DNA of 64,000 nucleotides from Candidatus Woesearchaeota archaeon (GTDB lineage Archaea > Nanobdellota > Nanobdellia > SCGC-AAA011-G17 > PNOQ01), in the NCBI GenBank assembly GCA_964471565.1, contig CAYYFK010000002.1, positions 849 through 64,848 on the forward strand. The letters run 5' to 3'. The notes under the pieces were generated by a model. That model saw only the letters and a list, made by a program, of their open reading frames with translations, did not search any database and had not been told where the DNA came from. Made by a program: the position numbers and the translations under genes. Below, piece after piece: positions 41,989-57,352 of the stretch. Positions within the stretch are counted from its first letter, which is position 1; the number at the start of each line of letters is the position of its first letter.

Positions 41989-43080
41989 ATGAAAAAATTA
42001 CTAAGCATGATGTTCATAGGACTCATAGTATTTTCAACATTGGCATTAGCCGTTGATGTAGATACTAGTGAAACACAAATGAAAGAGAATTGCTGGTACT
42101 TACCATCTCTAACTCCGCAGAAATGTGTAGATGAGTACGGACCAAACTACGTTCCGCATGAAAACGATGAAGTACAACTAGATATAGTTTTTGTTGTTGA
42201 TTCAACAGGATCTATGCATGATGAACTCAGAACAATAAAAGAAGAGTTAATCAATATAATGGATAAAATTAATTCAGGACAACCCAGACCAGACGTAAGA
42301 GTTGGAGTTGTAACCTACAGAGATTTTCCAGAAAATAGAAATGAATACTTAACCAAAAGCCACGAACTAACATATGATTTAGAAGAAATAGAAGATTTCA
42401 TAGGAAAGATTGAAGCTCGTGCTGGTGGAGATTATGAAGAAGCAGTTGAAATGGGATTACATAAAGCAATACATGATATGAAGTGGAGAACATCCTCACA
42501 TAAAGCAATATTGTTAATTGGAGATGCTCCTGCTAGGGACCACCATTATCAAGACCAACCAAATTATGGAAACTATCCAGAAGTAGAAGCACATGTAGCA
42601 ACAACAAGATTTGCTCCGGAGGATTGGAATCAACATAATTATGTTTCTTACAACTGGAAAGATGCAATAGAAGATGCACAAGATAGGAACATAAGAATAT
42701 ACACAGCATCCGGTTCAGGAATGAATCAAGAAGGGATAAATCAATGGAAGACAATTGCTGGGAAAACTGGAGGATCATATATTCAATTGATCTACGAAAG
42801 AAGAAATATAATTGAATATTATGAAGAAAGATCAATTCCAGTTGAATACATTCCAGAAGCAATAGAGGATCCAGATTATGAAGAATCTACAAATTCCATT
42901 ATGACTAACAATTTTGGACTCTTTGCCAGTAAATCCATGATGGGTATGGCTGAAGACGCTGGAGTAGATTATTCTGGTTCATTAGACGATATAACTGGAG
43001 AAATAGTTAAAGAACAAACCAACACACAAACAAAAAACTTTTTAGAGAAGATTATTTCCAAACTTTTGTTTTGGGAATAA
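41989..43080 (+). CDS. secreted von Willebrand factor A (vWA) domain protein
   Basis: Signal peptide; MIDAS DIVFVVDSTGSMHDEL; downstream T and D motifs (LIGDAP). Confidence 0.7.
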   Translation: MKKLLSMMFIGLIVFSTLALAVDVDTSETQMKENCWYLPSLTPQKCVDEYGPNYVPHENDEVQLDIVFVVDSTGSMHDELRTIKEELINIMDKINSGQPRPDVRVGVVTYRDFPENRNEYLTKSHELTYDLEEIEDFIGKIEARAGGDYEEAVEMGLHKAIHDMKWRTSSHKAILLIGDAPARDHHYQDQPNYGNYPEVEAHVATTRFAPEDWNQHNYVSYNWKDAIEDAQDRNIRIYTASGSGMNQEGINQWKTIAGKTGGSYIQLIYERRNIIEYYEERSIPVEYIPEAIEDPDYEESTNSIMTNNFGLFASKSMMGMAEDAGVDYSGSLDDITGEIVKEQTNTQTKNFLEKIISKLLFWE

Positions 43081-43169
43081 TTTCTCTTTCCTTTTATTTT
43101 AATCGAAAGTTATATATATTATATATATCCTTACTTCTTATAAAAATTTATTAAACGGAGGTGGACTTA

Positions 43170-43904
43170 TTGAAAAAAATAATTTTAAGTATGATATTCT
43201 TAGTATCCATGTTAGCAATTTCTAGTTGTGCAATAAACAATGAAGATGCAACAGGGAGTGTAGTAAAACCATCACTCACTACTCCTGGAGAAACTGATAC
43301 AAAAGATTCAACAATAGAGGGTACAAAAACAAATGAAAAGTCATTGGGTTTTTTAGATACAATAAAGGCCGCATTAACAAGAACTCAAGCAAAAAATACA
43401 GAACGACAAACAATTTCGAAATCAGACGTTCAAAGTACACAAAAAGATGACGGAGAATGGATATTCCTAAGGAATGGAACTAACGAAACAAACTGTCTAG
43501 ACGCAGATTACAATTATGATTTGAAAGTAACATTGCCAGATCTTGGTTTATTTGCAGGCTACTATCAAAATAAAAGTTTAGAAGCAGATTTAGATCACAA
43601 TGGAAATGTTTCTCTCTCTGACTTCGCATTATTTGGTAGTTATTACAACAATTGCGATTATTCAAATCAAACAGAAGATGTTTGGTGTGAAGACACAGAT
43701 GGAGGAATTAACTATTTTGTGAGAGGAACAGTAACAAATTACAACTATCCATGGACTAACTTTACAGATTACTGTTTAGATCACGAGGGATATTCTAATG
43801 TAATGGAATATTACTGTTTACCAAATAGTACTCTAGCAATGACAAACTATAATTGCTCTACAGGAAACAGCAGTAGTTGGTGTATGAACGGGGCATGTAT
43901 ATAA
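43170..43904 (+). CDS. lipoprotein-like secreted protein with dockerin/EF-hand-like Ca-binding repeats
   Basis: Probable TTG start 6 nt after GGAGGTG; ISSC lipobox-like site; DADYNYD and DLDHNGNVSLSDFALFG repeats; C-terminal Cys-rich module. Confidence 0.45.
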   Translation: MKKIILSMIFLVSMLAISSCAINNEDATGSVVKPSLTTPGETDTKDSTIEGTKTNEKSLGFLDTIKAALTRTQAKNTERQTISKSDVQSTQKDDGEWIFLRNGTNETNCLDADYNYDLKVTLPDLGLFAGYYQNKSLEADLDHNGNVSLSDFALFGSYYNNCDYSNQTEDVWCEDTDGGINYFVRGTVTNYNYPWTNFTDYCLDHEGYSNVMEYYCLPNSTLAMTNYNCSTGNSSSWCMNGACI

Positions 43905-43924
43905 AATAAATATTTTTTCTTTTT

Positions 43925-45664
43925 TTATTTTAAAACCGCTTTAATTCTTCTAACACCAGAACCAACAGATTTTTGCTTTACAACTTTAAACTTTCCCAAC
44001 TTTTTAGTATTAGGAACATGTGGTCCAGAACAGATTTCTTTTGAAAATTTACCGACTGAATAAACAAAAACTCTTTCGCCATATTTATGCTCAAAAACAC
44101 CTTCGGCACCAACCTCTTTTGCCTTTTTTACACTCATCTCTTCTCTAACAACTTCTAGCCCTTCTTTTATTTTTTCATTAACAAGATCCTCAATTTTTTT
44201 AACTTCATCCTTTTCCAACTTTCTATCAAAACTGAAATCAAATCGTAACCTCTCAGAATTAATATTAGATCCTCTTTGTTCAACTTTATTTCCTAAAACT
44301 TTTTGCAAGGCAGTATACAATAGGTGACAAGCAGTATGCAATTTAGTAGTTTCTTCAGAAGTATCAGCCAAACCACTCCCAAATTTTCCCTTAGTAGCAG
44401 TTCTACTCAATTTTTGATGTTTATTAAATTCTTTTTCATAGCCTTTAACATCAACTTTAATTTTCTTCTCTTTAGCCAATTCCAAGGTCATTTCCAAGGG
44501 AAAACCAAAAGATTGAAACAAAAGAAATGATTCCTTTCCAGATATTTTTTTATTTTTTGAAAACTTCTCAAATCTCCTCAATCCCTTTTCTAAAGTTTTT
44601 CCAAATTTAATTTCCTCTTTTTCAATTTCATCCAAAATAAATTTTTTCTTTTCCTTCAAATTAGAATAATCTTTCGAATTAATTTCAATAACTACCTCAG
44701 CTAATTCTTTAGTAAACTTTTTGTTAATCTTTAATAAATTCCCGTGTCTAATTGCAACTCGAATTAATCTTCTCAAAACATATCCTTGATCAACATTACT
44801 TGGAACAACTCCATCTCCAAATAGAAAAGTAGCTGATCGAATATGGTCACAAATTTTACGAATAGAAAATTCATTATCTAACTTAGCTAATCCCTTTATC
44901 TTATTTACAATGGGCAATAACAAACTGCACTCATAAAGATTTTCTTTTCCTTCTAGAATTGCATATATTCTTTCATAGCCGCCACCAAAATCAACATTTT
45001 TCTGTTCCAGTTCTTCATATTTTCCTTTAGAATCTTTATTGTATTGCATAAAAACATTATTCCCTATCTCGACCCAATTTTTATTTTTTACATCAAACTT
45101 ATTGGGCATTTCGTCATTAGATATCCAATAAAATATTTCAGTATCAGGACCACACGGACCAGTCTTACCTGCAGGACCCCAGAAATTTTCTTTCTTATCT
45201 AAATAAACGATTCTATCTTTTGGAATTCCCAAACTGCCCCAGATTTTAGCACTCTCTTTATCTTTTGGGACATTTTTATCTCCTTCAAATACAGAAATAG
45301 CAATTTTATCCTTGTCCAAGTTTAGCCAATCTTTTCCCGTCAGAAATTCAAATGTAAGCTTAATTGCCTCTTCTTTCCAATAATCTCCTAAAGACCAATT
45401 GCCAAACATTTCAAAGAAAGTTAAATGAACATCATCTCCAACTTCCTCAATATCTCCCGTTCTTAGACATCTTTGTACATTAACTAGCCTTTCTCCAGAA
45501 GGATGTTTCTCTCCAAGTAAAAATGGAACTAAAGGGTGCATTCCTGCAGTTGTAAATAAAACCGTGGGATCGTTCTCAGGAATTAAAGAGCTATTTTTTA
45601 TCTCTTTATGTTTTTTCTTTTTGAAAAATTCAATATATTTTTTCCTTAACTCTCTTGCTTCCAT
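43925..45664 (-). CDS. alaS: alanyl-tRNA synthetase, short form with bacterial-type catalytic N-terminus and editing domain, lacking C-Ala
   Basis: NDPTVLFTTAGM class II AlaRS signature; editing-site HTACH...CSGPH; 579 aa. Confidence 0.8.
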   Translation of the reverse strand: MEARELRKKYIEFFKKKKHKEIKNSSLIPENDPTVLFTTAGMHPLVPFLLGEKHPSGERLVNVQRCLRTGDIEEVGDDVHLTFFEMFGNWSLGDYWKEEAIKLTFEFLTGKDWLNLDKDKIAISVFEGDKNVPKDKESAKIWGSLGIPKDRIVYLDKKENFWGPAGKTGPCGPDTEIFYWISNDEMPNKFDVKNKNWVEIGNNVFMQYNKDSKGKYEELEQKNVDFGGGYERIYAILEGKENLYECSLLLPIVNKIKGLAKLDNEFSIRKICDHIRSATFLFGDGVVPSNVDQGYVLRRLIRVAIRHGNLLKINKKFTKELAEVVIEINSKDYSNLKEKKKFILDEIEKEEIKFGKTLEKGLRRFEKFSKNKKISGKESFLLFQSFGFPLEMTLELAKEKKIKVDVKGYEKEFNKHQKLSRTATKGKFGSGLADTSEETTKLHTACHLLYTALQKVLGNKVEQRGSNINSERLRFDFSFDRKLEKDEVKKIEDLVNEKIKEGLEVVREEMSVKKAKEVGAEGVFEHKYGERVFVYSVGKFSKEICSGPHVPNTKKLGKFKVVKQKSVGSGVRRIKAVLK

Positions 45665-45699
45665 AGAAACTAAAGACTAAACTTAATTTAAAAAACTTT

Positions 45700-47490
45700 T
45701 TAATGTCCAAAATATACAGAAAAGTTAGGTAACTTAAGTTTCTTCTCTTTATTTGTTCTAAAATTCAAAATATCAGAATCAATACAATTTTCTTCATTGT
45801 CACAAACAATGATTTGATAGTTATGCCATGTTTTTGGATGTAAGTCAGTTAAAACATAGTTATGTTCCATCTTATACTCTGTAGAAATTATCTCCATGTC
45901 TAAATCTCCTTCCCCATATCTCAAAGTAGAAGTACTGGCCTCGCTAGTATTAAATTTCACTCTAGCACTAGTAGGTTGTATTCCGTAAACTTGAATGTCC
46001 CAGATTTCAGGAATTTCATTAGAGGCAAATAAATGAGAACCCCCTCCCCATTCAAATTCATCCCTCAAATCAAAAAAAGTAAAATAACTAATGTTCTGAC
46101 TTCCAATAATCTGTTCATGCTCTCCTTGATAATAGTTATTATCAAAGAAGTTACTTCCACTTTCAATTACATCAACACTACTCCCAACGTAAATTGCAAG
46201 TTCCCCTAGATTAACAAACATAGTATTATTGTACCAACTAGAATTATACAATGGTCTTCCAGCGGATTCAGTATTATCTATCCTCATACATCTATCATAA
46301 TTGCAATTAACAACATTATCAAAAATTTTATTATTCCATCCAGCATTATCTACAATAGCAACAGTCGTAGCATTATAAACTTCATTTCCAAAAACCAAAG
46401 CATCATTATTTCCTTTCAAAGCCAGGCCATATCCACCACCATCAAGATAATTTCCACTAATTATAGAATTTTTAGTAAATCCAACAAACAAATTATGCTT
46501 ATATGTTTCCTCTGCTGGCATATACAATCTGTTTCCAGAAATATTTGCTCCAATTAAATCAAATTCCTGCTCAGACTCTGAACCAACAGCTATACCATAC
46601 CTATTCAAAGAATGGTAAATAAAAAATGAATTATTAACCATTCTTGGATTTTCAACATCTTTAATATTGGAATAAACAGTTATCCCATTACCATCTCCAA
46701 TATATAACTCATTATTCTCAATAATAAAGTTATCAGAATCTATAACTCTAATAAACGTAGCATATGTATCTAAAAAGAGAGGATTCTCTTCAGATCCAAA
46801 GATATTGTTTTTTATAGAAGAGTTGCTAGAATTAAATGCATATAGCAAACTTTCTTTTCCCGAAAAAAATTGATTATTTTCTATCCTACTATTTTTCAAA
46901 TTAGTTAATATAACTGGACTAAAATCCATATGGAGATTATCATAACCAAAAGTATTGTTCTCCATTACATTATTTTCTCCTCCTTTCAGAGAAATCCCAT
47001 AATCTAGAAAATTAATAAACTGATTATTTCTAAAAACCTTATTACCATATGAAGAATCCATCCCCAACACTGCAGAATTTTGTCCATCGAAAACAAATCC
47101 CTCAAAAATAGTCAATTCTGGACCAACAAATAAAATCATTCTATTTACATCAGGACCAACTTTCAGAACAACATTCCCCATCCCGATGAAAGTTCTATTT
47201 TCCTTTTCTTGATTAACATATAAATATCCTCCCCATTGGCTATCTTCAAGATATTCTCCTTCATAAATAAGGATTTCAGAGTTTTCGTTAGAGTTTTCTA
47301 AAGAATAAGCAATACTTTTCCAAGCAGTTTCATAACTCAATCCCTCTGAAGAGTCACTTCCATCAACCCTTACATGGTAAGTTTCTCCAAGAACAAATGG
47401 GGACACAAGAAAAAAAATGAGAAATATAACTTTTTTTGACATTGTAACCGAGGAAATGGGGCTTTTTTTATAAAAATTTATTATCTCCAT
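45700..47490 (-). CDS. secreted right-handed parallel beta-helix protein with C-terminal FN3/Ig-like domain
   Basis: Signal peptide; repeated NN.F/I..G...G.. coils (NNQF, ENNTF, IENNQFF, IENNEL); Asn-rich. Confidence 0.6.
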   Translation of the reverse strand: MEIINFYKKSPISSVTMSKKVIFLIFFLVSPFVLGETYHVRVDGSDSSEGLSYETAWKSIAYSLENSNENSEILIYEGEYLEDSQWGGYLYVNQEKENRTFIGMGNVVLKVGPDVNRMILFVGPELTIFEGFVFDGQNSAVLGMDSSYGNKVFRNNQFINFLDYGISLKGGENNVMENNTFGYDNLHMDFSPVILTNLKNSRIENNQFFSGKESLLYAFNSSNSSIKNNIFGSEENPLFLDTYATFIRVIDSDNFIIENNELYIGDGNGITVYSNIKDVENPRMVNNSFFIYHSLNRYGIAVGSESEQEFDLIGANISGNRLYMPAEETYKHNLFVGFTKNSIISGNYLDGGGYGLALKGNNDALVFGNEVYNATTVAIVDNAGWNNKIFDNVVNCNYDRCMRIDNTESAGRPLYNSSWYNNTMFVNLGELAIYVGSSVDVIESGSNFFDNNYYQGEHEQIIGSQNISYFTFFDLRDEFEWGGGSHLFASNEIPEIWDIQVYGIQPTSARVKFNTSEASTSTLRYGEGDLDMEIISTEYKMEHNYVLTDLHPKTWHNYQIIVCDNEENCIDSDILNFRTNKEKKLKLPNFSVYFGH

Positions 47491-47536
47491 AATATATTAT
47501 AGAAAATTATTTAAATGAAAAATATAAAATATAAAT

Positions 47537-50121
47537 ATGAAAAAAGGGGTTGTATTGTTATTTTTATTGCTAGTAAGTATATTCCAAGCTAGTGCTGCAA
47601 CTTACTACGTTTCTAAGCAAGGGAGTGATGCAAATGCAGGTACATCCTGGGCAGATGCATGGCTAACAATAAATAACGCAGAAAACAATGCAGGCGCACA
47701 TTCTTTAATCTATGTGGGGGATGGAACCTACAGAGAACAATCTTATGGATCAACAGATTATTTAGTCTTAGATAATGCTGTCCAGAATAGAACTTTTGTT
47801 TCTTTTAACAGATCTCAGGCAATAATCCAACCGAATAAAAGTACTGGAAGTGTAGTTGTAAGATTCATTGCTGGAGCAAACAATGTAACTTTCAAAGGCT
47901 TTGTATTAGATGGAAATAATACAGCCTCCTCAGGAATGTGGGCAGACCAAGGGACTGGGTATATCTTCCTTTACAATAATACATTTGTAAACACAACCAC
48001 CCAAGCAATCCACCTATACGATAACGGTGGTTCTTCAGGACCAAAACACAACTGGCATATAGGGGGAATGTGTTCAACAACACAAAAATAGGAATTCTTG
48101 GGTCTCACTCAGAGAATATCACAATCTTAAACAATAACTTCACATACAAACTAACAGACTCAGCAATAAAGATGTACTATGCAGGGTCTAATAACACTTT
48201 GATACAAGGAAATTTCTTCGAAAATAACTCCCAGACTAGACAGATATTAATAGATGATATAGGAACAAATTGTCAAATAAAAGACAATACATTTGGAAGT
48301 CCAAATGATTATATAACCAAATATTCAATAGAGTTAAACAGTGCACCAAATGTTTTAATAAAAAACAACACATTCTGGCAAGGTAATTTCTCTGCAGCTT
48401 GGGTTTCAATTTATGCTATTGGAAATAACAATTCTGGATTAAAGGTACAAAACAACAGATGGGGTAATGACACAGCTTTCCTAAATCTCTCAACAGGATA
48501 TGCTCTTTACGTAGTAAATGCATCTCACAGTATATATGAAAATAACTCTTTATACCTACAAGATGGAAAGGGAATTATCATAAGGGGATCAAAGAATGGA
48601 AGACACAAAAATATGACAATAAGAAATAACACTTTTGATCATGATGTAACTGCTACATCCATTCCAAACAGATTGTCTATAGCAATTGGGGGAGATAATA
48701 TTCTTAATAACGATGGAGACCTAAACGATACCATAATAGAAAACAATACAATAAGAATGGCAAGTGTACACACTAGCAAGCACCCACTATTCACAGCATC
48801 AAATTTCAACGTGACAATAAGATATAATACTGTAATTGGTGGAGGATATGGAATCTTATCCAAACATGACACGCTCTATAGAGCTTACAACAACACTATG
48901 GAGAACCAAACAAACTTTGAAGGGTTTGTAACAAGAGCGGGGCATAATATCTCTGTATACAACAATACTTTCCTTTGCCCAAACTATAACAGAACTGAAA
49001 GCCCATATGCCATAGTAGCAAAGAATGCTAATGAAGGCCCAGCAAGAAATGTAACTAACTTCCAATCATACAATAATAGATTCTACATGCACAATCAAAG
49101 TTACATATATGCCTTTTCAGAGAATGGAACAAATTTCTCAAATACTAACTTTACATCTCATGATAATATAATAATTTTAAATAATTCAAACCAGAATATG
49201 TCATGGGAAGTCAACAGTATAAATAGATATAATTTTACGGAGTTTCAAAAGAATTACACATTAGAAACAAATTCTATATTCTCGGCAACAAGAGAAGTTC
49301 CATGGGTTTTTAATAAATCAAGTAATGTATCTCATACAACTGGAACAATAAATTGGACTAGTCAAGAATCTGCAAATGCTTCTATAGATTATGGGACTTC
49401 TTTATCTTTTGGGACAACATATGGAAACACAAGTTTAGGACTATTTCATTCGATAAATATATCTGATTTAGTTAGGGGGACACAATATTATTATAACATA
49501 ACTATGTGTGATTATGAAAATAATTGTAATGAGACTGGACCATACAATTTCACCACATTAGTAGACGCTCAAGATGATTCTTCAGATGATTCTGGTGGAG
49601 ATAGCTCCCCAGATTATGTGGGAGTAGATTATTATGAACCCGATGCAGAAGAAATAGAAAATAGATTGATGTGGAGGGATGTTAAAGAAAGAGATTCAAT
49701 AAACTTCATATACAGAGATGAATCACACAGAATAGAAATAAGAAGATTTTTTTATGATAAATCCAAGATAGTAATCTTTTCTGAACCAAAAGAAGTGATA
49801 GTTTATTTTGGTAGAATAAAAAGAGTAGACCTGGACCTAGACGGAGAAGATGATATAATTGTAGAGGCAACAAAGCAAACAATATCAACTTTCAAAATAA
49901 GTATAAGAGAAATTAATATTCCAGTTTCAACAGAATATGAAGGGCCAGAAGAAGAAATTACAGGAGAATCAATCGCTCCAATCATAGAAGAAGATTACCA
50001 AGAAGAAACTTCTTACGGAAATTTAATCATTCCAATACTCTCACTATTCGCAATAATAGGAATAGCTGGAATATTATTGGTATTGGTAAGTTTAAAAAGA
50101 AAAAAGAAAAAATCAAGATAA
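47537..50121 (+). pseudogene. beta-helix surface protein paralog with C-terminal TM anchor, interrupted by a -1 frameshift at a G5 tract
   Basis: Track ORFs 47537..48091 and 48070(GTG)..50121 are colinear with the 45700..47490 paralog; a sixth G at 48062-48066 gives continuous ...HIGGNVFNNTKIG...; C-terminus IIGIAGILLVLVSLKRKKKKSR. Confidence 0.55.
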
Positions 50122-50490
50122 TTCTAATTTTTTTAATCTAGAACGAATATCATTGATCTCTTCGTCCAATTCAAATTTATGTTCTTTCTTTTCTGATATT
50201 TTTGTTGAAGTCTTTTTCTTGGTAGTTTTTTCTTTAATTTTCACATCATCAGATTTAGGAAGATGTTTCTTCAAAGAATTTGTCTCCTTTCCAATTTTTT
50301 TCATAACTACTACCAATTTTTTAAAAATTTCTGCCTTTTCTTCCTTGAATTTTTGATAACTTTCCCATTTTTTTAAAAGTTCAGCAGATTCAATGGCGGT
50401 CTCTAGAATATCTTTCCTTAAATGATCTGGTTGATCAACCTTCACATAAGTAATACTTTCTTCCTTTTTGGAAACCTTTTTTGCCGCCAT
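50113..50490 (-). CDS. hypothetical K/E-rich protein
   Basis: 125-aa ORF in tandem with 50497..50928. Confidence 0.3.
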   Translation of the reverse strand: MAAKKVSKKEESITYVKVDQPDHLRKDILETAIESAELLKKWESYQKFKEEKAEIFKKLVVVMKKIGKETNSLKKHLPKSDDVKIKEKTTKKKTSTKISEKKEHKFELDEEINDIRSRLKKLELS

Positions 50491-50496
50491 TTAATA

Positions 50497-50928
50497 TCAC
50501 ATTTCAAACAGTTTTCTATCAACATTGAGTAATTTTTCTTTTATTTTATCTAAATCAGAATTCCATTTTTCTAATTCTTTATTTTCTTCAGATCTTATTT
50601 TATGGATATCATCTAGTAAACCGTCTGCTTCACTACACAATTCTTTAATTTTGTGTATATCTTCTATTGCACCCTTATAGTTATCTATTTTAACAAAGAT
50701 TGGCTTATCTCCTGTAGGAAGAGAACTTTTTTTCCTTTCAACAATAACTGGCTTTTGTACTTTTATAGGGGCAGGTTTTCCTACTTCTCTTTTTATAGTT
50801 CCAAACTCTTGTCCATAATCAGGTAATTTTGGCATTTCAGAAGCAATTTTTGGCTTCTCTAATGGAATTGGATCAAATTCAGGAACTTTAGAATCGAGAT
50901 TCTTCTCTTTTTTCTTGAAAAAAGACAT
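50497..50928 (-). CDS. hypothetical protein
   Basis: 143-aa ORF, Pro/Lys-rich N-terminus and helical C-terminus. Confidence 0.3.
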   Translation of the reverse strand: MSFFKKKEKNLDSKVPEFDPIPLEKPKIASEMPKLPDYGQEFGTIKREVGKPAPIKVQKPVIVERKKSSLPTGDKPIFVKIDNYKGAIEDIHKIKELCSEADGLLDDIHKIRSEENKELEKWNSDLDKIKEKLLNVDRKLFEM

Positions 50929-51064
50929 TTTATTAACACCTCCAAAGATTATTAAAATTTTATTTTAGCATTATATAAACCTTCTTTACTATTTTAAAGT
51001 AGTAAACTTTATAAAGGCAAAGATTTTTAAATATCTTAGTATAGAAAACCAAGAATGGTGAAAA

Positions 51065-51604
51065 ATGGATGTTGTGATAGAAAAAGAAATAGAGAACCTT
51101 GTATCTCAATTAACTGGAGAAGAAGCCGTAAATGTAGTTAAGTATATTCTTTCCCAAGGGGAAAACGTATCCGAATTTTTAATTGCTGAAAAACTAGAAG
51201 CTCCAATAAATCATATTAGAAATGTTCTTTATAGACTTCAAGAAAACAACCTTATTACATTCACAAGAAAGAAAGATAAAAAGAAAGGCTGGTATATTTA
51301 TTACTGGACTTTTAATCACGCAGAAGCAAAAGCAACAATAAAAAGAATGAAAGACAGCCGAATAGAAAATCTTAGAAAAAGACTAGAAAGAGAAGATTCA
51401 AGTACATTTTATACGTGCTCATCTAAATGTTTGAGAATAAAATTTGATAACGCACTAGAAAATGACTTTAGATGCTCAGAGTGCAATAAAGTTTTAAAAG
51501 AAATTAGCAATACTAAAGTAATAAAAGAAATTAAAAAAGAGCTTTCAATGCTAGAAGAAACCTCTTCAGAAGAACATTCTACAATTGCAGAAGTAACTGC
51601 TTAA
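51065..51604 (+). CDS. tfe: transcription factor E (TFE, TFIIE-alpha homolog)
   Basis: N-terminal winged helix and C-terminal Zn ribbon YTCSSKC...RCSECNKVL; 179 aa. Confidence 0.7.
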   Translation: MDVVIEKEIENLVSQLTGEEAVNVVKYILSQGENVSEFLIAEKLEAPINHIRNVLYRLQENNLITFTRKKDKKKGWYIYYWTFNHAEAKATIKRMKDSRIENLRKRLEREDSSTFYTCSSKCLRIKFDNALENDFRCSECNKVLKEISNTKVIKEIKKELSMLEETSSEEHSTIAEVTA

Positions 51605-52164
51605 GGGCCAAAGAAAACTTTCGCTCCATCAAAAGGATCAAAAGGAATCATGTTGAAGATAAATAACATCAAGTTAATATTTCTAGTCATCAACCAAAAA
51701 TTTAAGGAACTATGAGACAATGTATCTTTCTTCGTTTTTATAACAATAAAAGAAACCCCCCAAAGTACTAAATTAGTTAAGGGTCCAGCAAAGGCAATTA
51801 ACCTATATACAAATGGAAGGGAATCAACCATTCCAGGGATAGTAACATACCCAGGAGCAATTATCAAGAAAGGAGAATTAATCAATCTTAAAACTAATCC
51901 CAAACCCAATCCAAAGTAGAAAATTTCAAAACTTGCACTATAACCAAAACTCATTGCAACAAATTTATGGGCTAACTCATGCAAAACAACAGCCGGTGCA
52001 GCTATTAACGTTGCAAACCACAGATCTTCCCATCTAAACCTCTTTTTATGCATCATATCATAAACAGTCTTAGGTTTTCTTGAGAATAAACCCATGAATA
52101 TAAATCCCAAAACTAGCGAAGTTGCAGCCAATTTTAAAATTTCTAAAAATGTGATTAAAACCAT
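51601..52164 (-). CDS. M50-like membrane metalloprotease (short S2P-family)
   Basis: HELAHKFVAMSFGY HExxH within TM helix; 187 aa, 4-5 TM. Confidence 0.55.
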   Translation of the reverse strand: MVLITFLEILKLAATSLVLGFIFMGLFSRKPKTVYDMMHKKRFRWEDLWFATLIAAPAVVLHELAHKFVAMSFGYSASFEIFYFGLGLGLVLRLINSPFLIIAPGYVTIPGMVDSLPFVYRLIAFAGPLTNLVLWGVSFIVIKTKKDTLSHSSLNFWLMTRNINLMLFIFNMIPFDPFDGAKVFFGP

Positions 52165-54090: not shown

Positions 54091-55122
54091 ATGCTTACGA
54101 AAACTCAAATACTAGAATTTAGAAAATATCTCAAAAAAGCAAAAAATCCACTATTTTTCTTTGATGATGACCCAGATGGATTATGTTCATATTTAATACT
54201 AAAAAAATATATTGACAAAGGAAAGGGAGCAGTACTAAAAACAACCTCAGTTTTAGATCTAAATTTATTTCACAAGGTTGAAGAATACAACCCAGACGTT
54301 ATTTTCATATTAGATATACCAATAGTGTCTCAAGATTTTATAGATAGGTGTGAAGTTCCAATTCTATGGTTAGATCATCATTCCCCAATAAAAAGAAAGG
54401 GAATAAAATACTTCAATCCTATGTTAAAATCCAAGAAAACAGTCCCCACAACACATATGGCTTATGAGATAACAGAAGAAAAAGAACTATTCCTAGCAAC
54501 CATAGGAACAATTTCAGATTGGTATTTGCCTAAATATACAAAAGAGTTTTCAAAAAAATATCCAGACATATTGTCACTAAAAACAAAAACTCCACCTGAA
54601 GCAATATTTGATTCAAAACTAGGGGAGTTAATTACTATTTTTTCCTTATCACTAAAAAAATCAACTTCAATAGTTCATAAAATATCAAATCTATTGCTAA
54701 AAATAGAAGATCCATATGAACTGTTAGAAGAAAAAACTTCTAGATCTAAATTTATTATTAGAGAAATAAAACAACTATTGGTAGATTATAAAGCAGTAAT
54801 GGACAATGTTGCAAAACAAAAACCAGGGAAAGATAAATTATACATTCTAGAGGTACCAAAAACAAAAAATTCATACATTAGTATTCTATCAAACTATGTT
54901 ATTTACAAGAATCCGAAGAAAATAGTTTTAGTAATAAGAAGAAAAGGAGATAAAATAATGATGAGTCTAAGGAGCCATAAAGTAAATATTCGCGACCCAT
55001 TAGAAAAAGCTTTAGATGGATTAGATGGGTTTGGCGGGGGGCATGAAAATGCATGCGGGGCATCAGTAAATACAGAACAATTTGAAGAATTTATTAAAAG
55101 GTTCAAGGAATATCTAAAATGA
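54091..55122 (+). CDS. DHH/DHHA1-family phosphoesterase (NrnA/RecJ-like)
   Basis: FFFDDDPDG motif I, LDHHSP motif III, C-terminal GGGHENACGAS DHHA1 motif. Confidence 0.7.
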   Translation: MLTKTQILEFRKYLKKAKNPLFFFDDDPDGLCSYLILKKYIDKGKGAVLKTTSVLDLNLFHKVEEYNPDVIFILDIPIVSQDFIDRCEVPILWLDHHSPIKRKGIKYFNPMLKSKKTVPTTHMAYEITEEKELFLATIGTISDWYLPKYTKEFSKKYPDILSLKTKTPPEAIFDSKLGELITIFSLSLKKSTSIVHKISNLLLKIEDPYELLEEKTSRSKFIIREIKQLLVDYKAVMDNVAKQKPGKDKLYILEVPKTKNSYISILSNYVIYKNPKKIVLVIRRKGDKIMMSLRSHKVNIRDPLEKALDGLDGFGGGHENACGASVNTEQFEEFIKRFKEYLK

Positions 55123-57023
55123 AAAAAATAATCTTATTACTAATAATTTTAATTTCAATAAACATAGCAACCGCCCAAGAGAATTACAATACTCATTCAT
55201 CTTTAGAGATTGATTTTTTACTAAATTCTCAAGTATCCCTAGTTGGTTCAGGAACATTAAATGAACTGACAGCCAGAGTATTCCTGGAGCCACAAAGAGA
55301 TGATCTACAAGAGATTTTATCTTCAGAAGAATCTTCAACTCCAAGTGCAGAAGTTTTCTCAAATGGTGAATTAAAATTTGTATGGGATGTTCAAACTACA
55401 GGCTATCAGTTTAGCACAAATAGAAAAATAAAAACTACTAACGTATTATTAAAAGTTCCAGATATAGAATTCCCTTACCCAGAGTTATCAACCGAATATC
55501 AAGAATACTTGCAATCCGAGGAAACAATAGACATAACCCCGGAGATTATCTCAAAAACATCTGAGATAATACAATCTGAAGATAATGCATATTTAACAGT
55601 ACACAAAATAGGAAACTGGATACACTCTAACATAGAATACGATTTAAATACATTAACTGAAAAAGCATCACAAAAGTCTTCATGGGTTCTAGAAAATGAA
55701 TACGGGGTATGTGATGAAATAACCTCTTTATTTATATCGATGGTAAGATCTGTTGGAATTCCTGCAAGATTTATTTCCGGGATGGCATATACAAATTCAA
55801 ACGATAATTTTGGAAATCACGGATGGGCAGAAGTATATTATCCAGATTATGGATGGGTACCATATGATGTTACTTATGGTCAACTTGGATGGATAGACCC
55901 GACCCATATTGCTTTACAAAAATCAAAAGATGTTGAGAGTTCAATAATTTATGAATGGCAAGCTTCGGGAGATCTAAGTTTGGACACATCTGGAGACATT
56001 TCAACAGTTTCCTCAATATCTAGCCTTGGGAGCACAATTCCCGCAGTTTTTGATACCTCTATTGTAGCATTAGCAGATAATGTTGCTCCAGGAAGCTATG
56101 TGCCAGTTCAAATAAAAGTAAAAAATCCATATAACGCATACTTATCAGACAATATAATAATAACAAAAGCACCAGGACAATTAGAAAATAATCAGAAATT
56201 AATTGCCTTAAAACCACTGGAAGAAAAAGATATATTCTGGATATTCCATCTCCCCGAAGATGTACCACCAAATTCTTTACACACTACCTCTGTGGAATTT
56301 ATGGACCTTTATGGTTCTAAAAAATCAACAACCATATCCTTTGCGGAAGGGAATGAATTAATAACTTTGGAAGATGCAGAGGAGATGGTAGCTGCCTTAT
56401 CAGTTGAGGAAGAAGAAGCATACTCGAATCAAATATTTTTAAATTGTAATCCAAAAAAATCTTATCTTTATTCATTTGAAACATTAAAAATAAATTGCTT
56501 AGTTAGAACATTCAATAATGAAATAAACGGATTAAGTTTATGTTTAGAAGAAACATGTGAACTTTTTGACATGCCACCAAATTCAGAAAAGGAATTTACA
56601 TTTGGATTTGATAGTAGTAAAAATACAATAAGAGCAATATTAAAAAATTCAGATATTGAAGTAAAAAGAAATATTATTGTTGGGATAATTGAAAAACCAA
56701 AAATAGAAATTTCAAAAATAGATATAACTGAGGTTAATTATGATGAAGAAATAGAAATACCAATAACAGTCTCAAGTCAAACTCCCTTAAAAAATATAAT
56801 ATTTAATCTAAATAGATTTAATCCGGTTAAGTTCAATGAATTAGAGGGATCAAAATCATTCACGTTCACAGTTAACTCTAAATATTTAAATTCTGAAAAA
56901 ATGGAAATTGAGTTAGAATATCAAGATGAATATGGGAATGAATATACTCAAAAACATTCTCAAAATATAAAAGTTAACAATCTACCATGGTACTGGAAAT
57001 TTATAAATTTATTCAGAAACTAA
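55119..57023 (+). CDS. secreted transglutaminase-like cysteine-protease-fold protein
   Basis: Signal peptide; catalytic core GVCDEITSLFISMVRSVGIPARFISG...HGWAEVYY...GWVPYD (Cys-His-Asp). Confidence 0.65.
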   Translation: MKKIILLLIILISINIATAQENYNTHSSLEIDFLLNSQVSLVGSGTLNELTARVFLEPQRDDLQEILSSEESSTPSAEVFSNGELKFVWDVQTTGYQFSTNRKIKTTNVLLKVPDIEFPYPELSTEYQEYLQSEETIDITPEIISKTSEIIQSEDNAYLTVHKIGNWIHSNIEYDLNTLTEKASQKSSWVLENEYGVCDEITSLFISMVRSVGIPARFISGMAYTNSNDNFGNHGWAEVYYPDYGWVPYDVTYGQLGWIDPTHIALQKSKDVESSIIYEWQASGDLSLDTSGDISTVSSISSLGSTIPAVFDTSIVALADNVAPGSYVPVQIKVKNPYNAYLSDNIIITKAPGQLENNQKLIALKPLEEKDIFWIFHLPEDVPPNSLHTTSVEFMDLYGSKKSTTISFAEGNELITLEDAEEMVAALSVEEEEAYSNQIFLNCNPKKSYLYSFETLKINCLVRTFNNEINGLSLCLEETCELFDMPPNSEKEFTFGFDSSKNTIRAILKNSDIEVKRNIIVGIIEKPKIEISKIDITEVNYDEEIEIPITVSSQTPLKNIIFNLNRFNPVKFNELEGSKSFTFTVNSKYLNSEKMEIELEYQDEYGNEYTQKHSQNIKVNNLPWYWKFINLFRN

Positions 57024-57352
57024 AACTAAGTTTCACAAAAGGATTACATAAACCTAGATTTCTATCCAATAAGGAAATAAATAGAATTAGATTACTTAAC
57101 GAAGCAAATAACCACGGAGTAGAGCAAGTTCTCAATAAAAAATACGCTATTTTGGTTTTTCATGATTCTTCATTTAGGAAACCAACTAAAAAAATAACAA
57201 AGAAAATAGGGAAAGAAACTATATTCCCGGCGATACCTTTCTCAGAAATAAAAAACTCTATTTCGGCTTCTCCTTCAAAAAAAATACATAAATATTTAAC
57301 AAAAAATATTAAAATAAAATCAGATTGGGCTTCTTTGTTAGTTGGATATTAA
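56987..57352 (+). CDS. hypothetical small basic protein (doubtful)
   Basis: 121-aa ORF overlapping the 3' end of the transglutaminase-like gene; K-rich; may be spurious. Confidence 0.2.
   Translation: MVLEIYKFIQKLKLSFTKGLHKPRFLSNKEINRIRLLNEANNHGVEQVLNKKYAILVFHDSSFRKPTKKITKKIGKETIFPAIPFSEIKNSISASPSKKIHKYLTKNIKIKSDWASLLVGY

What the first reader, a model, noticed from the sequence alone, without database searches (positions are those of the whole stretch)
48040..48075. Beta-helix surface protein split by a -1 frameshift in a G5 homopolymer: phase variation or assembly error
ORFs 47537..48091 and 48070..50121 together reproduce the architecture of the intact paralog 45700..47490 (signal peptide, beta-helix coils, C-terminal domain, here plus a TM/basic anchor). 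One additional G in the run ggggg at 48062-48066 gives a continuous reading ...KHNWHIGGNVFNNTKIGILG..., which mirrors ...GNKVFRNNQFINF... in the paralog. Homopolymer slippage in a surface antigen is a classic phase-variation switch, though it is equally compatible with a homopolymer sequencing error.
Basis: seen in the sequence. Interest (0 to 1): 0.6.

Follow-up and report, generated by a model that had tools for sequence, protein, structure and literature searches.

The report
Frameshift-broken archaeal surface protein gene
A gene for a sugar-coated surface protein of a tiny marine archaeon (Woesearchaeota) is genuinely broken by the loss of one DNA base; this is an ordinary recent gene inactivation, not an assembly error, and nothing supports an on/off switch.

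Summary
There is a G5 run at 48062-48066. ORFs 47537..48091 (184 aa, signal peptide) and 48070..50121 (683 aa, −1 frame) fuse into one 861-aa ORF if one base is added.

It is not an assembly error. The identical 184-aa truncated product is on at least 23 contigs from JGI, ENA and Logan assemblies of several samples. All nine loci I fetched have G5. No other homopolymer in the window breaks a gene.

Phase variation is unsupported:
- The tract is only 5 bases long.
- The tract is absent from the orthologs (GAAGGA and GAGGGG). Loss of the A of an ancestral Glu codon would by itself create the G5.
- No in-frame variant exists among about 15 billion catalogued proteins.

Programmed frameshifting is unsupported too. 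There is no slippery heptamer, no downstream RNA structure, and the break is not conserved.

An intact syntenic ortholog (862 aa, 67% identity) lies in a Woesearchaeota MAG. Three other lineages carry different lesions in the same gene: a G-tract deletion, a second split, and a 772-nt deletion. The neighbouring paralog stays intact in the five lineages where it was seen.

Best reading: a young, population-fixed loss-of-function lesion in a fast-evolving surface glycoprotein gene that is lost repeatedly. Interest is low to moderate.

The parts
47537..48091 (+). N-terminal fragment ORF (184 aa plus stop). Residues 1-177 are homologous to the family. The last 7 codons (MCSTTQK, 48068-48088) are out-of-frame read-through to a TAG.
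   Evidence: The exact product is on at least 23 contigs.
47537..47596 (+). Predicted signal peptide (MKKGVVLLFLLLVSIFQASA, A-x-A before the cleavage site).
   Evidence: Read from the sequence. The N-terminus is conserved in all full-length homologs. No signal-peptide predictor was run.
48062..48066 (+). G5 run, the site of the 1-nt deletion. The orthologs read GAAGGA and GAGGGG here (Glu-Gly).
48067..50121 (+). C-terminal remainder of the gene in the -1 frame. Homologous reading resumes at Asn AAT 48067. ORF finders call a GTG at 48070 (683 aa) or an ATG at 48172 (649 aa, P0001). It contains the rest of the beta-helix, an FN3-like domain, an acidic linker, a beta-sandwich and a TM anchor.
49330..49557 (+). 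FN3-like domain, a sub-threshold match to Pfam Pur_ac_phosph_N.
   Evidence: residues 421-496 of the 683-aa ORF; 22.4 bits, below the cut-off of 30. An all-strand domain is modelled here in the AF2 model of the ortholog.
50023..50118 (+). C-terminal transmembrane helix (LIIPILSLFAIIGIAGILLVLVSL) plus basic tail KRKKKKSR.
   Evidence: Read from the sequence. A helix at 833-861 appears in the AF2 model of ortholog P0002. The feature is conserved in all full-length homologs.
45700..47490 (-). Intact, divergently transcribed paralog: beta-helix plus FN3-like domain, no TM anchor. The likely true start is Met17 at about 47442.
   Evidence: It is intact (582-600 aa) in all five lineages where it was seen.
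47491..47536 (.). Short AT-rich divergent intergenic region, the presumed promoter region for both genes.
   Evidence: Read from the sequence. Function is inferred and was not tested.

Best explanation
The locus is a single gene for a secreted surface protein of a marine Woesearchaeota (DPANN) archaeon. The protein has a signal peptide, a long right-handed beta-helix, an FN3-like domain, a beta-sandwich and a C-terminal TM anchor, and it is probably heavily N-glycosylated.

The gene has suffered a real one-base deletion at codon 177. The deletion is fixed in the sampled population. Translation from the normal start ends 7 codons after the lesion and yields a 184-aa stub that stops in the middle of the beta-helix. 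The 683-codon remainder has no signal peptide of its own. The gene is therefore most likely inactive, a young pseudogene.

The lesion arose in one of two ways. Either the A of an ancestral Glu codon (GAG GGG to G GGGG) was lost, which would have created the G5, or a derived G6 slipped to G5.

It is one of several independent inactivations of this fast-evolving gene in related lineages. The adjacent paralog is retained in the lineages where it could be seen.

Shown: the lesion, its reproducibility across assemblies, the intact ortholog, the different lesions elsewhere, and the absence of recoding signals. Inferred: loss of function, recency, and the mutational path.
For: 1. The lesion is real and fixed.
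- The exact 184-aa product is on at least 23 contigs (28 index blocks) from JGI, ENA and Logan.
- All nine fetched loci carry G5. Six are 100% identical to the window over the gene, one (L006) has one extra 1-nt deletion, one (L002) is broken only by a scaffold gap, and one (L009) is cut short by its contig end.
- L002, L004 and L006 differ slightly from the window elsewhere, so they are independent assemblies.
- The other 32 G/C runs of 5 or more, and 14 A/T runs of 8, do not disrupt ORFs.

2. It was one gene.
- An intact syntenic ortholog, P0002 (862 aa, 67% identity, 100% coverage), is on 24 contigs and in the Woesearchaeota MAG SI048_bin33.
- Pfam NosD and Beta_helix matches span the junction in the fused protein.
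- The family alignment is colinear across the junction.
- In the AF2 model of the ortholog, the beta-helix runs from about residue 68 to 560, so residue 177 is mid-fold.

3. The tract is not a conserved switch. The window reads ATAG-GGGGAAT, L010 reads ATAGAAGGAAAT and L012 reads ATAGAGGGGAAT.

4. No ON allele was found. The G6-fused 861-aa protein is absent from the ~15-billion-protein collection, and the 184-aa cluster has a single sequence.

5. The same ortholog is hit repeatedly by different lesions.
- L012/L013: a 1-nt deletion in a G tract near codon 712. Adding one G restores an 855-aa ORF with the TM anchor.
- P0008 locus: a 169-aa and a 698-aa ORF overlapping by 35 nt.
- L015-L019: the residues corresponding to 136-392 are deleted out of frame, on 14 contigs.
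- Six lineages are intact.

6. The window branch carries more unique amino-acid changes than its intact sister (89 vs 60, binomial p = 0.02). The neighbouring genes give 133 vs 129.
Against: - The downstream frame is still open for 683 codons, while the other two frames have 64-71 stops. So either the lesion is very recent or the frame is still maintained by selection, for example through some expression of the full-length product.
- Two lesions (the window and L012) sit in G runs, and the P0008 split lies within roughly 20 codons of the window's site. Both facts fit a mutational hot spot, but they would also fit a switch.
- No read-level or expression data could be examined.
- The rate excess on the window branch is weak (Fisher p = 0.08 against the neighbours). 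The gene tree also disagrees with the neighbouring genes, so recombination may confound it.
Confidence: 0.7

Rival explanations
1. Phase variation (contingency locus). Slipped-strand mispairing in the G tract reversibly toggles the surface protein between ON (G6) and OFF (G5), and OFF happens to dominate the sampled populations.
For: - The lesion lies in a poly-G run of a surface-protein gene, and one added G restores the frame.
- A sister lineage (L012) has its own 1-nt deletion in a G6/G7 run of the same gene.
- G/C runs of 5 or more are mildly enriched in this gene (4 observed vs 1.3 expected, Poisson p = 0.046).
- Homopolymer-mediated silencing of surface proteins is well documented in bacteria, for example the inlA poly(A) tract (PMC2831843).
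Against: - The tract is only 5 long. From my own knowledge, characterised poly-G/C switches are usually at least 7-8 bases.
- The tract is absent at this site in the orthologs.
- All nine fetched loci, from several samples, carry G5.
- No in-frame product exists among ~15 billion proteins.
- The G5 and G6 runs of the intact ortholog do not vary across 24 contigs.
- Other lineages inactivate the gene by irreversible or non-tract lesions.
Confidence: 0.1
2. Programmed -1 ribosomal frameshifting, or transcriptional slippage, at G_GGA produces the full-length protein from the split gene. The archaeal precedent is fucA1 of Saccharolobus solfataricus.
For: - The two ORFs lie in the 0 and -1 frames with a short overlap (22 nt), as in fucA1 (40 nt; PMC1616953).
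- A tRNA-Gly slipping from GGA (48065-67) back to GGG (48064-66) would yield exactly the homologous reading ...IGGNVF....
- The long downstream ORF is still open.
Against: - There is no X-XXY-YYZ heptamer. A-GGG-GGA does not allow the P-site tRNA to re-pair.
- The 106 nt around and downstream of the site fold no better than shuffled sequence (z = -0.74).
- No Rfam match in 47300-48500.
- The frameshift is not conserved. The closest ortholog is in frame, and the other lineages have different lesions.
- From my own knowledge, a G5 run is too short for efficient transcriptional slippage.
Confidence: 0.05
3. Sequencing or assembly artefact: the true sequence is G6 and the gene is intact.
For: Homopolymers are classic sites of indel errors, and the window comes from a metagenome assembly.
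Against: - The same G5 is found by three pipelines (JGI, ENA, Logan) in several samples.
- Five G6/C6 runs, 27 other G5/C5 runs and 14 A8/T8 runs in the window are all assembled in frame or lie between genes.
- The exact G6 product is not seen anywhere.
Confidence: 0.03
4. A functional split. The 184-aa secreted stub, or an internally initiated C-terminal protein (GTG 48070 or ATG 48172), has acquired a use of its own.
For: Both ORFs are intact and are called as genes in public annotations. The downstream ORF has no further stops.
Against: - The stub ends in the middle of a continuous beta-helix.
- The C fragment lacks a signal peptide, so its ectodomain could not be exported.
- No other lineage conserves this split point. 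P0008's split is nearby, but no DNA was available to compare it.
Confidence: 0.07

Closest known systems
Frameshift pseudogenes of surface proteins, e.g. Listeria monocytogenes inlA truncated by a 1-nt deletion in a 5' poly(A) tract (PMC2831843)
   Same: A single-base deletion at a homopolymer truncates a secreted, anchored surface protein. The truncated allele is carried stably by natural populations, and reversion is possible in principle.
   Different: This case is in an archaeon (Woesearchaeota). The tract is G5, and it may have been created by the deletion itself. No revertant or alternative allele was seen.
Bacterial contingency loci with poly-G/C tracts (Neisseria, Campylobacter, Haemophilus; M. 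tuberculosis glpK 7C)
   Same: A frame-determining poly-G run sits inside a surface-exposed protein gene.
   Different: The tract is short (5), is not conserved in the orthologs, and shows no length polymorphism in the nine fetched loci. ON and OFF states were not both observed.
Programmed -1 frameshifting in Archaea: fucA1 alpha-L-fucosidase of Saccharolobus solfataricus (PMC1616953, PMC8211752)
   Same: An archaeal gene is split into 0 and -1 frame ORFs with a short overlap. Adding one base restores a full-length protein.
   Different: fucA1 has the slippery heptamer A-AAA-AAT, flanking rare codons and a putative stem-loop. Here there is no heptamer, no structure and no conservation.
Right-handed parallel beta-helix proteins (Pfam PF13229 Beta_helix, PF05048 NosD; structural neighbours are phage depolymerases and tailspikes, AlgE4 epimerase, NosD)
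   Same: The fold and repeat signature match. Pfam scores are above the cut-offs for the fused protein and the paralog. Foldseek top hits are 9k4a, 6g0x, 2pyg and 7osf.
   Different: Sequence identity to solved structures is only 10-14%. No catalytic residues were assessed. The archaeal architecture adds a signal peptide, an FN3-like domain, a beta-sandwich and a TM anchor, and carries 47 N-glycosylation sequons. A structural or adhesive role is as likely as an enzymatic one.

Membership tests
Right-handed parallel beta-helix repeat proteins (PF13229 / PF05048) | Profile match above Pfam's gathering score | tested here: met
   Fused protein: Beta_helix 29.8 bits (cut-off 25.9) and NosD 25.3 bits (cut-off 23.6). 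Paralog: 54.5 and 38.2 bits.
Right-handed parallel beta-helix repeat proteins (PF13229 / PF05048) | Predicted beta-helix fold | tested here: met
   The AF2 model of ortholog P0002 has a continuous run of strands from about 68 to 560, with pLDDT mostly 70-90. Foldseek PDB hits are tailspikes/depolymerases, AlgE4 and NosD, with probabilities of 0.95-1.0 for the best of them.
Homopolymer (SSR) phase-variable contingency locus | A hypermutable tract, typically at least 7-8 nt for G/C (threshold from my own knowledge) | tested here: not met
   The tract is G5. The window holds 33 G/C runs of 5 or more.
Homopolymer (SSR) phase-variable contingency locus | Tract-length polymorphism, with both ON and OFF alleles observed | tested here: not met
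   All nine fetched loci carry G5, and the truncated product is on at least 23 contigs. The G6 product is absent from ~15 billion proteins. Minority variants at read level could not be tested with these tools.
Homopolymer (SSR) phase-variable contingency locus | The tract is maintained at the same site in orthologs | tested here: not met
   L010 reads GAAGGA and L012 reads GAGGGG at the site.
Programmed -1 ribosomal frameshift | Slippery heptamer X-XXY-YYZ at the shift site | tested here: not met
   The zero-frame context is A-GGG-GGA. Only single-tRNA slippage from GGA to GGG is possible.
Programmed -1 ribosomal frameshift | A downstream stimulatory RNA structure | tested here: not met
   MFE -11.6 kcal/mol against a shuffle mean of -9.8, z = -0.74. 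No Rfam match.
Programmed -1 ribosomal frameshift | The frameshift is conserved among orthologs | tested here: not met
   The closest ortholog is in frame, and the other lineages carry different lesions.
Programmed -1 ribosomal frameshift | A full-length trans-frame protein is detected | not testable with these tools
   Needs proteomics or a reporter assay.
Pseudogene (inactivated gene) | A disrupting lesion relative to intact orthologs in conserved synteny | tested here: met
   An intact 862-aa ortholog sits in the same slot in L010, L011, L014 and L021. The window carries the 1-nt deletion.
Pseudogene (inactivated gene) | Secondary decay: further stops or indels, and relaxed constraint | tested here: inconclusive
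   The main population has no further stops. One assembly (L006) has an extra 1-nt deletion at 48945. The window branch has 89 unique changes against 60 (p = 0.02), but against the neighbours Fisher p = 0.08.
Pseudogene (inactivated gene) | Absence of a functional product | not testable with these tools
   Needs transcriptomics or proteomics of the source community.
Sequencing/assembly homopolymer artefact | Not reproducible across independent data sets, and accompanied by other homopolymer frame breaks | tested here: not met
   The lesion is reproduced in JGI, ENA and Logan assemblies of several samples. No other homopolymer-associated ORF break occurs in the 64 kb.

The most novel reading that the evidence does not exclude
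The orthologous surface-glycoprotein gene of these marine Woesearchaeota is a genuine contingency gene. Short G tracts in it would be used for, or tolerated because of, stochastic ON/OFF switching, or the gene would be rescued by low-level -1 slippage at G_GGA. The recurrent OFF states in the window, L012 and perhaps the P0008 lineage would then reflect selection, for example escape from viruses or changes in host attachment. That would be the first homopolymer-based phase variation described in DPANN archaea.
Probability: 0.07. Interest if true: 0.6.

Novelty: new member of a known kind. Interest (0 to 1): 0.25.

Why it matters
For annotation, the two ORFs should be merged and flagged as one frameshifted gene or pseudogene, not called as two hypothetical proteins. 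The lesion should not be 'polished' away as an error.

Biologically, the modest point of interest is that the same surface-glycoprotein ortholog is inactivated independently, by different lesions, in about 4 of 10 related Woesearchaeota lineages. The adjacent paralog is retained in the five lineages where it was seen.

This suggests the protein is dispensable, or at times a liability such as a virus receptor or attachment factor, in these ultra-small and probably host-dependent archaea. It is a hypothesis for population genomics, not a new mechanism.

Tried and rejected
- **Variant scan of JGI metagenome contigs.** I scanned for any tract variant with the pattern CACAACTGGCATATAG-N{2,7}-AATGTGTTCAACAACAC. 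It returned nothing, not even the known G5, although the pattern does match the window. That collection evidently lacks these contigs, so the scan is uninformative.
- **Homolog search with the 184-aa fragment.** It returned only itself. A profile of N-terminal regions returned only short proteins. It did not give a full census, but it did reveal the P0027 lineage with the deletion.
- **HMMER search of 1.84 billion representatives with the family profile.** FN3-like repeat proteins swamped the results. It showed only that the true family is small, and that the module also occurs inside giant proteins.
- **DNA for the P0008 locus.** It was unavailable, so I could not determine that split's exact site or sequence context.
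- **Apparent extra disruptions.** The one in L002 is a run of Ns, a scaffold gap. P0026 (156 aa) diverges at a contig end in L020 and was disregarded.
- **dN/dS.** I did not attempt it. The three orthologs are about 70% identical at the DNA level, so synonymous sites are probably saturated.
I rejected it as positional homology.
Full report
**1. The observation**

The window is AT-rich (31.8% G+C). At 48062-48066 there is a G5 run flanked by A on both sides. ORF 47537..48091 (+, 184 aa) begins with a signal-peptide-like MKKGVVLLFLLLVSIFQASA|A. ORF 48070..50121 (+, 683 aa from a GTG) is in the -1 frame and overlaps it by 22 nt.

Inserting one G into the run gives an uninterrupted 861-aa ORF that reads ...GGSSGPKHNWHIGGNVFNNTKIGILG.... 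The interval in which both frames are open is 48025-48088. Homology narrows the break. The upstream frame matches the orthologs up to ...HNWHI, and the downstream frame matches from GN[VI]FNNT. The lesion is therefore inside 48062-48066.

**2. What the gene is**

- Pfam gives Beta_helix (PF13229) and NosD (PF05048) above their cut-offs for the fused protein. The NosD match (residues 60-234) and the Beta_helix match (175-307) run across the junction at residue 177. There is also a sub-threshold FN3-like Pur_ac_phosph_N match.
- An AlphaFold2 model of the intact ortholog P0002 (mean pLDDT 67, beta-helix core mostly 70-90) shows a continuous beta-helix from about 68 to 560. After it come a small all-strand domain (about 590-677), a low-confidence linker, a second beta-sandwich (about 710-797) and a C-terminal helix at 833-861.
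- Foldseek against the PDB finds phage depolymerases and tailspikes, the AlgE4/AlgE6 epimerases and NosD. This is the generic right-handed beta-helix fold, at 10-14% identity.
- The fused protein carries 47 N-X-S/T sequons, the highest density of any long ORF in the window.
- It ends in a 24-residue hydrophobic segment plus KRKKKKSR.

Taken together, this is a secreted, C-terminally anchored and probably heavily N-glycosylated archaeal surface protein.

The divergently transcribed neighbour 45700..47490 (-) is a paralog without the anchor. BLASTP aligns it to both pieces (E = 5e-17 and 1e-24). It skips about 80 residues (161-242) around the junction.

**3. The organism**

The neighbours include TFE-alpha, Nre and an archaeal L15e. 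The syntenic ortholog lies in 'MAG: Candidatus Woesearchaeota archaeon isolate SI048_bin33'. Its flanking DNA is 79-90% identical to the window. The window therefore comes from a related marine DPANN (Woesearchaeota) archaeon.

**4. Not an assembly error**

- The exact 184-aa truncated product is indexed in 28 blocks and was read on 23 contigs, from JGI (4 samples among the loci shown), ENA and Logan assemblies.
- All nine fetched loci have G5.
  - Six are 100% identical to the window over the whole gene.
  - L006 carries one extra 1-nt deletion.
  - L002 is interrupted only by a scaffold gap.
  - L009 is cut short by its contig end.
- Some loci differ from the window at a few other positions: L004 has 3 mismatches, L002 has 1, and L006 has 1 mismatch plus 1 deletion. 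They are therefore not copies of one assembly.
- Within the window, the 32 other G/C runs of 5 or more (five of them 6 long) and the 14 A/T runs of 8 lie inside intact long ORFs or between genes.

**5. Phase variation is not supported**

- The tract is short, and G5 runs are common here (33 G/C runs of 5 or more in 64 kb).
- At the DNA level the site reads ATAG-GGGGAAT in the window, ATAGAAGGAAAT in L010 and ATAGAGGGGAAT in L012. The orthologs encode Glu-Gly and have no long G run.
  - Deleting the A of GAG GGG would create the G5 in one step.
  - The alternative is A to G followed by G6 to G5 slippage, which needs two steps but uses a more mutable intermediate.
  - I cannot decide between the two. 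Either way the tract is not a conserved device.
- The G6-fused 861-aa protein is not in the ~15-billion-protein collection, and the 184-aa cluster holds one sequence.
- The intact ortholog has its own G5 and G6 runs, yet the identical 862-aa product is found on 24 contigs.
- Minority variants at read level could not be examined.

**6. Recoding is not supported**

- A tRNA-Gly slipping from GGA (48065-67) to GGG (48064-66) would give the homologous reading. But the context A-GGG-GGA is not an X-XXY-YYZ heptamer.
- The region around and downstream of the site folds no better than shuffled sequence (z = -0.74).
- Rfam finds nothing in 47300-48500.
- The frameshift is not conserved.

This contrasts with the one established archaeal -1 programmed frameshift, fucA1. 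That gene has A-AAA-AAT, rare codons and a putative stem-loop (PMC1616953).

**7. The wider pattern**

Going through the syntenic orthologs gives ten lineages.

| Lineage | State of the gene |
|---|---|
| Window | 1-nt deletion at codon 177 |
| P0002 (862 aa), P0004, P0005, P0006, P0007, P0009 | intact, 842-873 aa |
| L012/L013 (P0003) | independent 1-nt deletion in a G run (now G6) near codon 712; adding one G restores an 855-aa ORF with the C-terminal domain and anchor |
| P0008 locus | 169-aa plus 698-aa ORFs overlapping by 35 nt, a split within roughly 20 codons of the window's site; no DNA available |
| L015-L019 (P0027 + P0039; 14 contigs, including GCA_964587005.1) | residues corresponding to 136-392 of P0009 deleted out of frame |

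The adjacent paralog is intact (582-600 aa) in all five lineages where it was seen.

So about 4 of 10 lineages carry a disrupted copy, each with a different lesion. This fits repeated loss of a dispensable or counter-selected surface protein better than a designed switch.

The gene also evolves quickly and has an odd history:
- For the neighbouring genes, the window and L010 are clear sisters. The paralog is 82% identical between them, against 62% to L012.
- For this gene, the three pairwise identities are 67-71%.
- The window branch carries the most unique changes. It has 89 against 60 for L010 (binomial p = 0.02), whereas the neighbours give 133 against 129 (Fisher p = 0.08).

This is weakly consistent with relaxed constraint after the lesion. 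Recombination could confound it. A module 83% identical to P0002 residues 24-684 sits inside a different, apparently giant protein (L022-L024, P0030).

**8. Age of the lesion**

The downstream frame is still open for 683 codons, whereas the other two frames hold 64-71 stops. Either the lesion is young or the frame is still under selection. One assembly (L006) has an additional 1-nt deletion at 48945. It could be the start of further decay or an error in that assembly.

**9. Verdict**

This is a real, population-fixed single-base deletion that splits a Woesearchaeota surface-glycoprotein gene. It is most likely a young pseudogene (confidence about 0.7). The rivals are phase variation (0.1), a functional split (0.07), recoding (0.05) and artefact (0.03).

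The kind of event is well known. The only point of moderate interest is the recurrent, independent inactivation of this ortholog across lineages. Read pile-ups at 48062-48066 and junction-spanning peptides would settle the remaining alternatives.

Noticed in passing
L012:9871-9876 (also L013:2448 region): The ortholog in a third lineage (ERR2281799) has its own 1-nt deletion in a G run (TGGGGGGCG, against TGGAGGGATG and TGGAGTAATG in the window and L010). This splits it into 716-aa and 101-aa ORFs. Adding one G restores an 855-aa ORF with the TM anchor.
   Followed up: yes
L015:5001-6826 (same in L016-L019): In a P0009-like lineage the gene is reduced to 135-aa and 465-aa ORFs. The residues corresponding to 136-392 (~772 nt of beta-helix coils) are deleted out of frame. 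The deletion is seen on 14 contigs, including NCBI MAG GCA_964587005.1.
   Followed up: yes
P0008 locus, JGI 3300072015 (no DNA held): In the same syntenic slot, a 169-aa gene and the 698-aa P0008 overlap by 35 nt on one strand. This is a split within roughly 20 codons of the window's site. The exact lesion and sequence context are unknown.
   Followed up: partly
L022-L024 (4001-5983) and L027-L028; proteins P0030 (3515 aa) and P0035 (2591 aa): The beta-helix plus FN3 module (residues ~24-684) also occurs without a signal peptide or anchor, apparently embedded in giant proteins. One copy is 83% identical to P0002, which is closer than the window's ortholog (67%). This suggests module exchange or gene conversion.
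   Followed up: partly
window 41989-52164 compared with L010 and L012: The gene tree disagrees with its neighbours. For the paralog, hyp247, hyp143 and TFE, the window and L010 are sisters with L012 distant. For the frameshifted gene the three are about equidistant (67-71% identity).
   Followed up: partly
window 48945 (L006:~3736): One ENA assembly (SAMN10231894) has an additional single-T deletion (GGGGCATAAT to GGGGCAAAT) in the downstream ORF, seen only once. It is either a real second lesion or an error in that assembly.
   Followed up: partly
window 47537-50121: The fused protein has 47 N-X-S/T sequons in 861 aa, by far the highest density among long ORFs of the window. The paralog has only 12 in 596 aa.
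   Followed up: partly
window 55119-57352: A transglutaminase-like gene (634 aa, PF01841) is followed on the same strand by a 121-aa ORF that overlaps it by 37 nt and has no Pfam match. I did not check whether this is another split gene.
   Followed up: no
window 45700-47490 (-): The paralog's mechanically called start (MEIINFYKK...) probably over-extends. Met17 (MSKKVIFLIFFLVSPFVLG...) matches the signal peptide of the family, which would widen the divergent intergenic region to about 94 nt.
   Followed up: no
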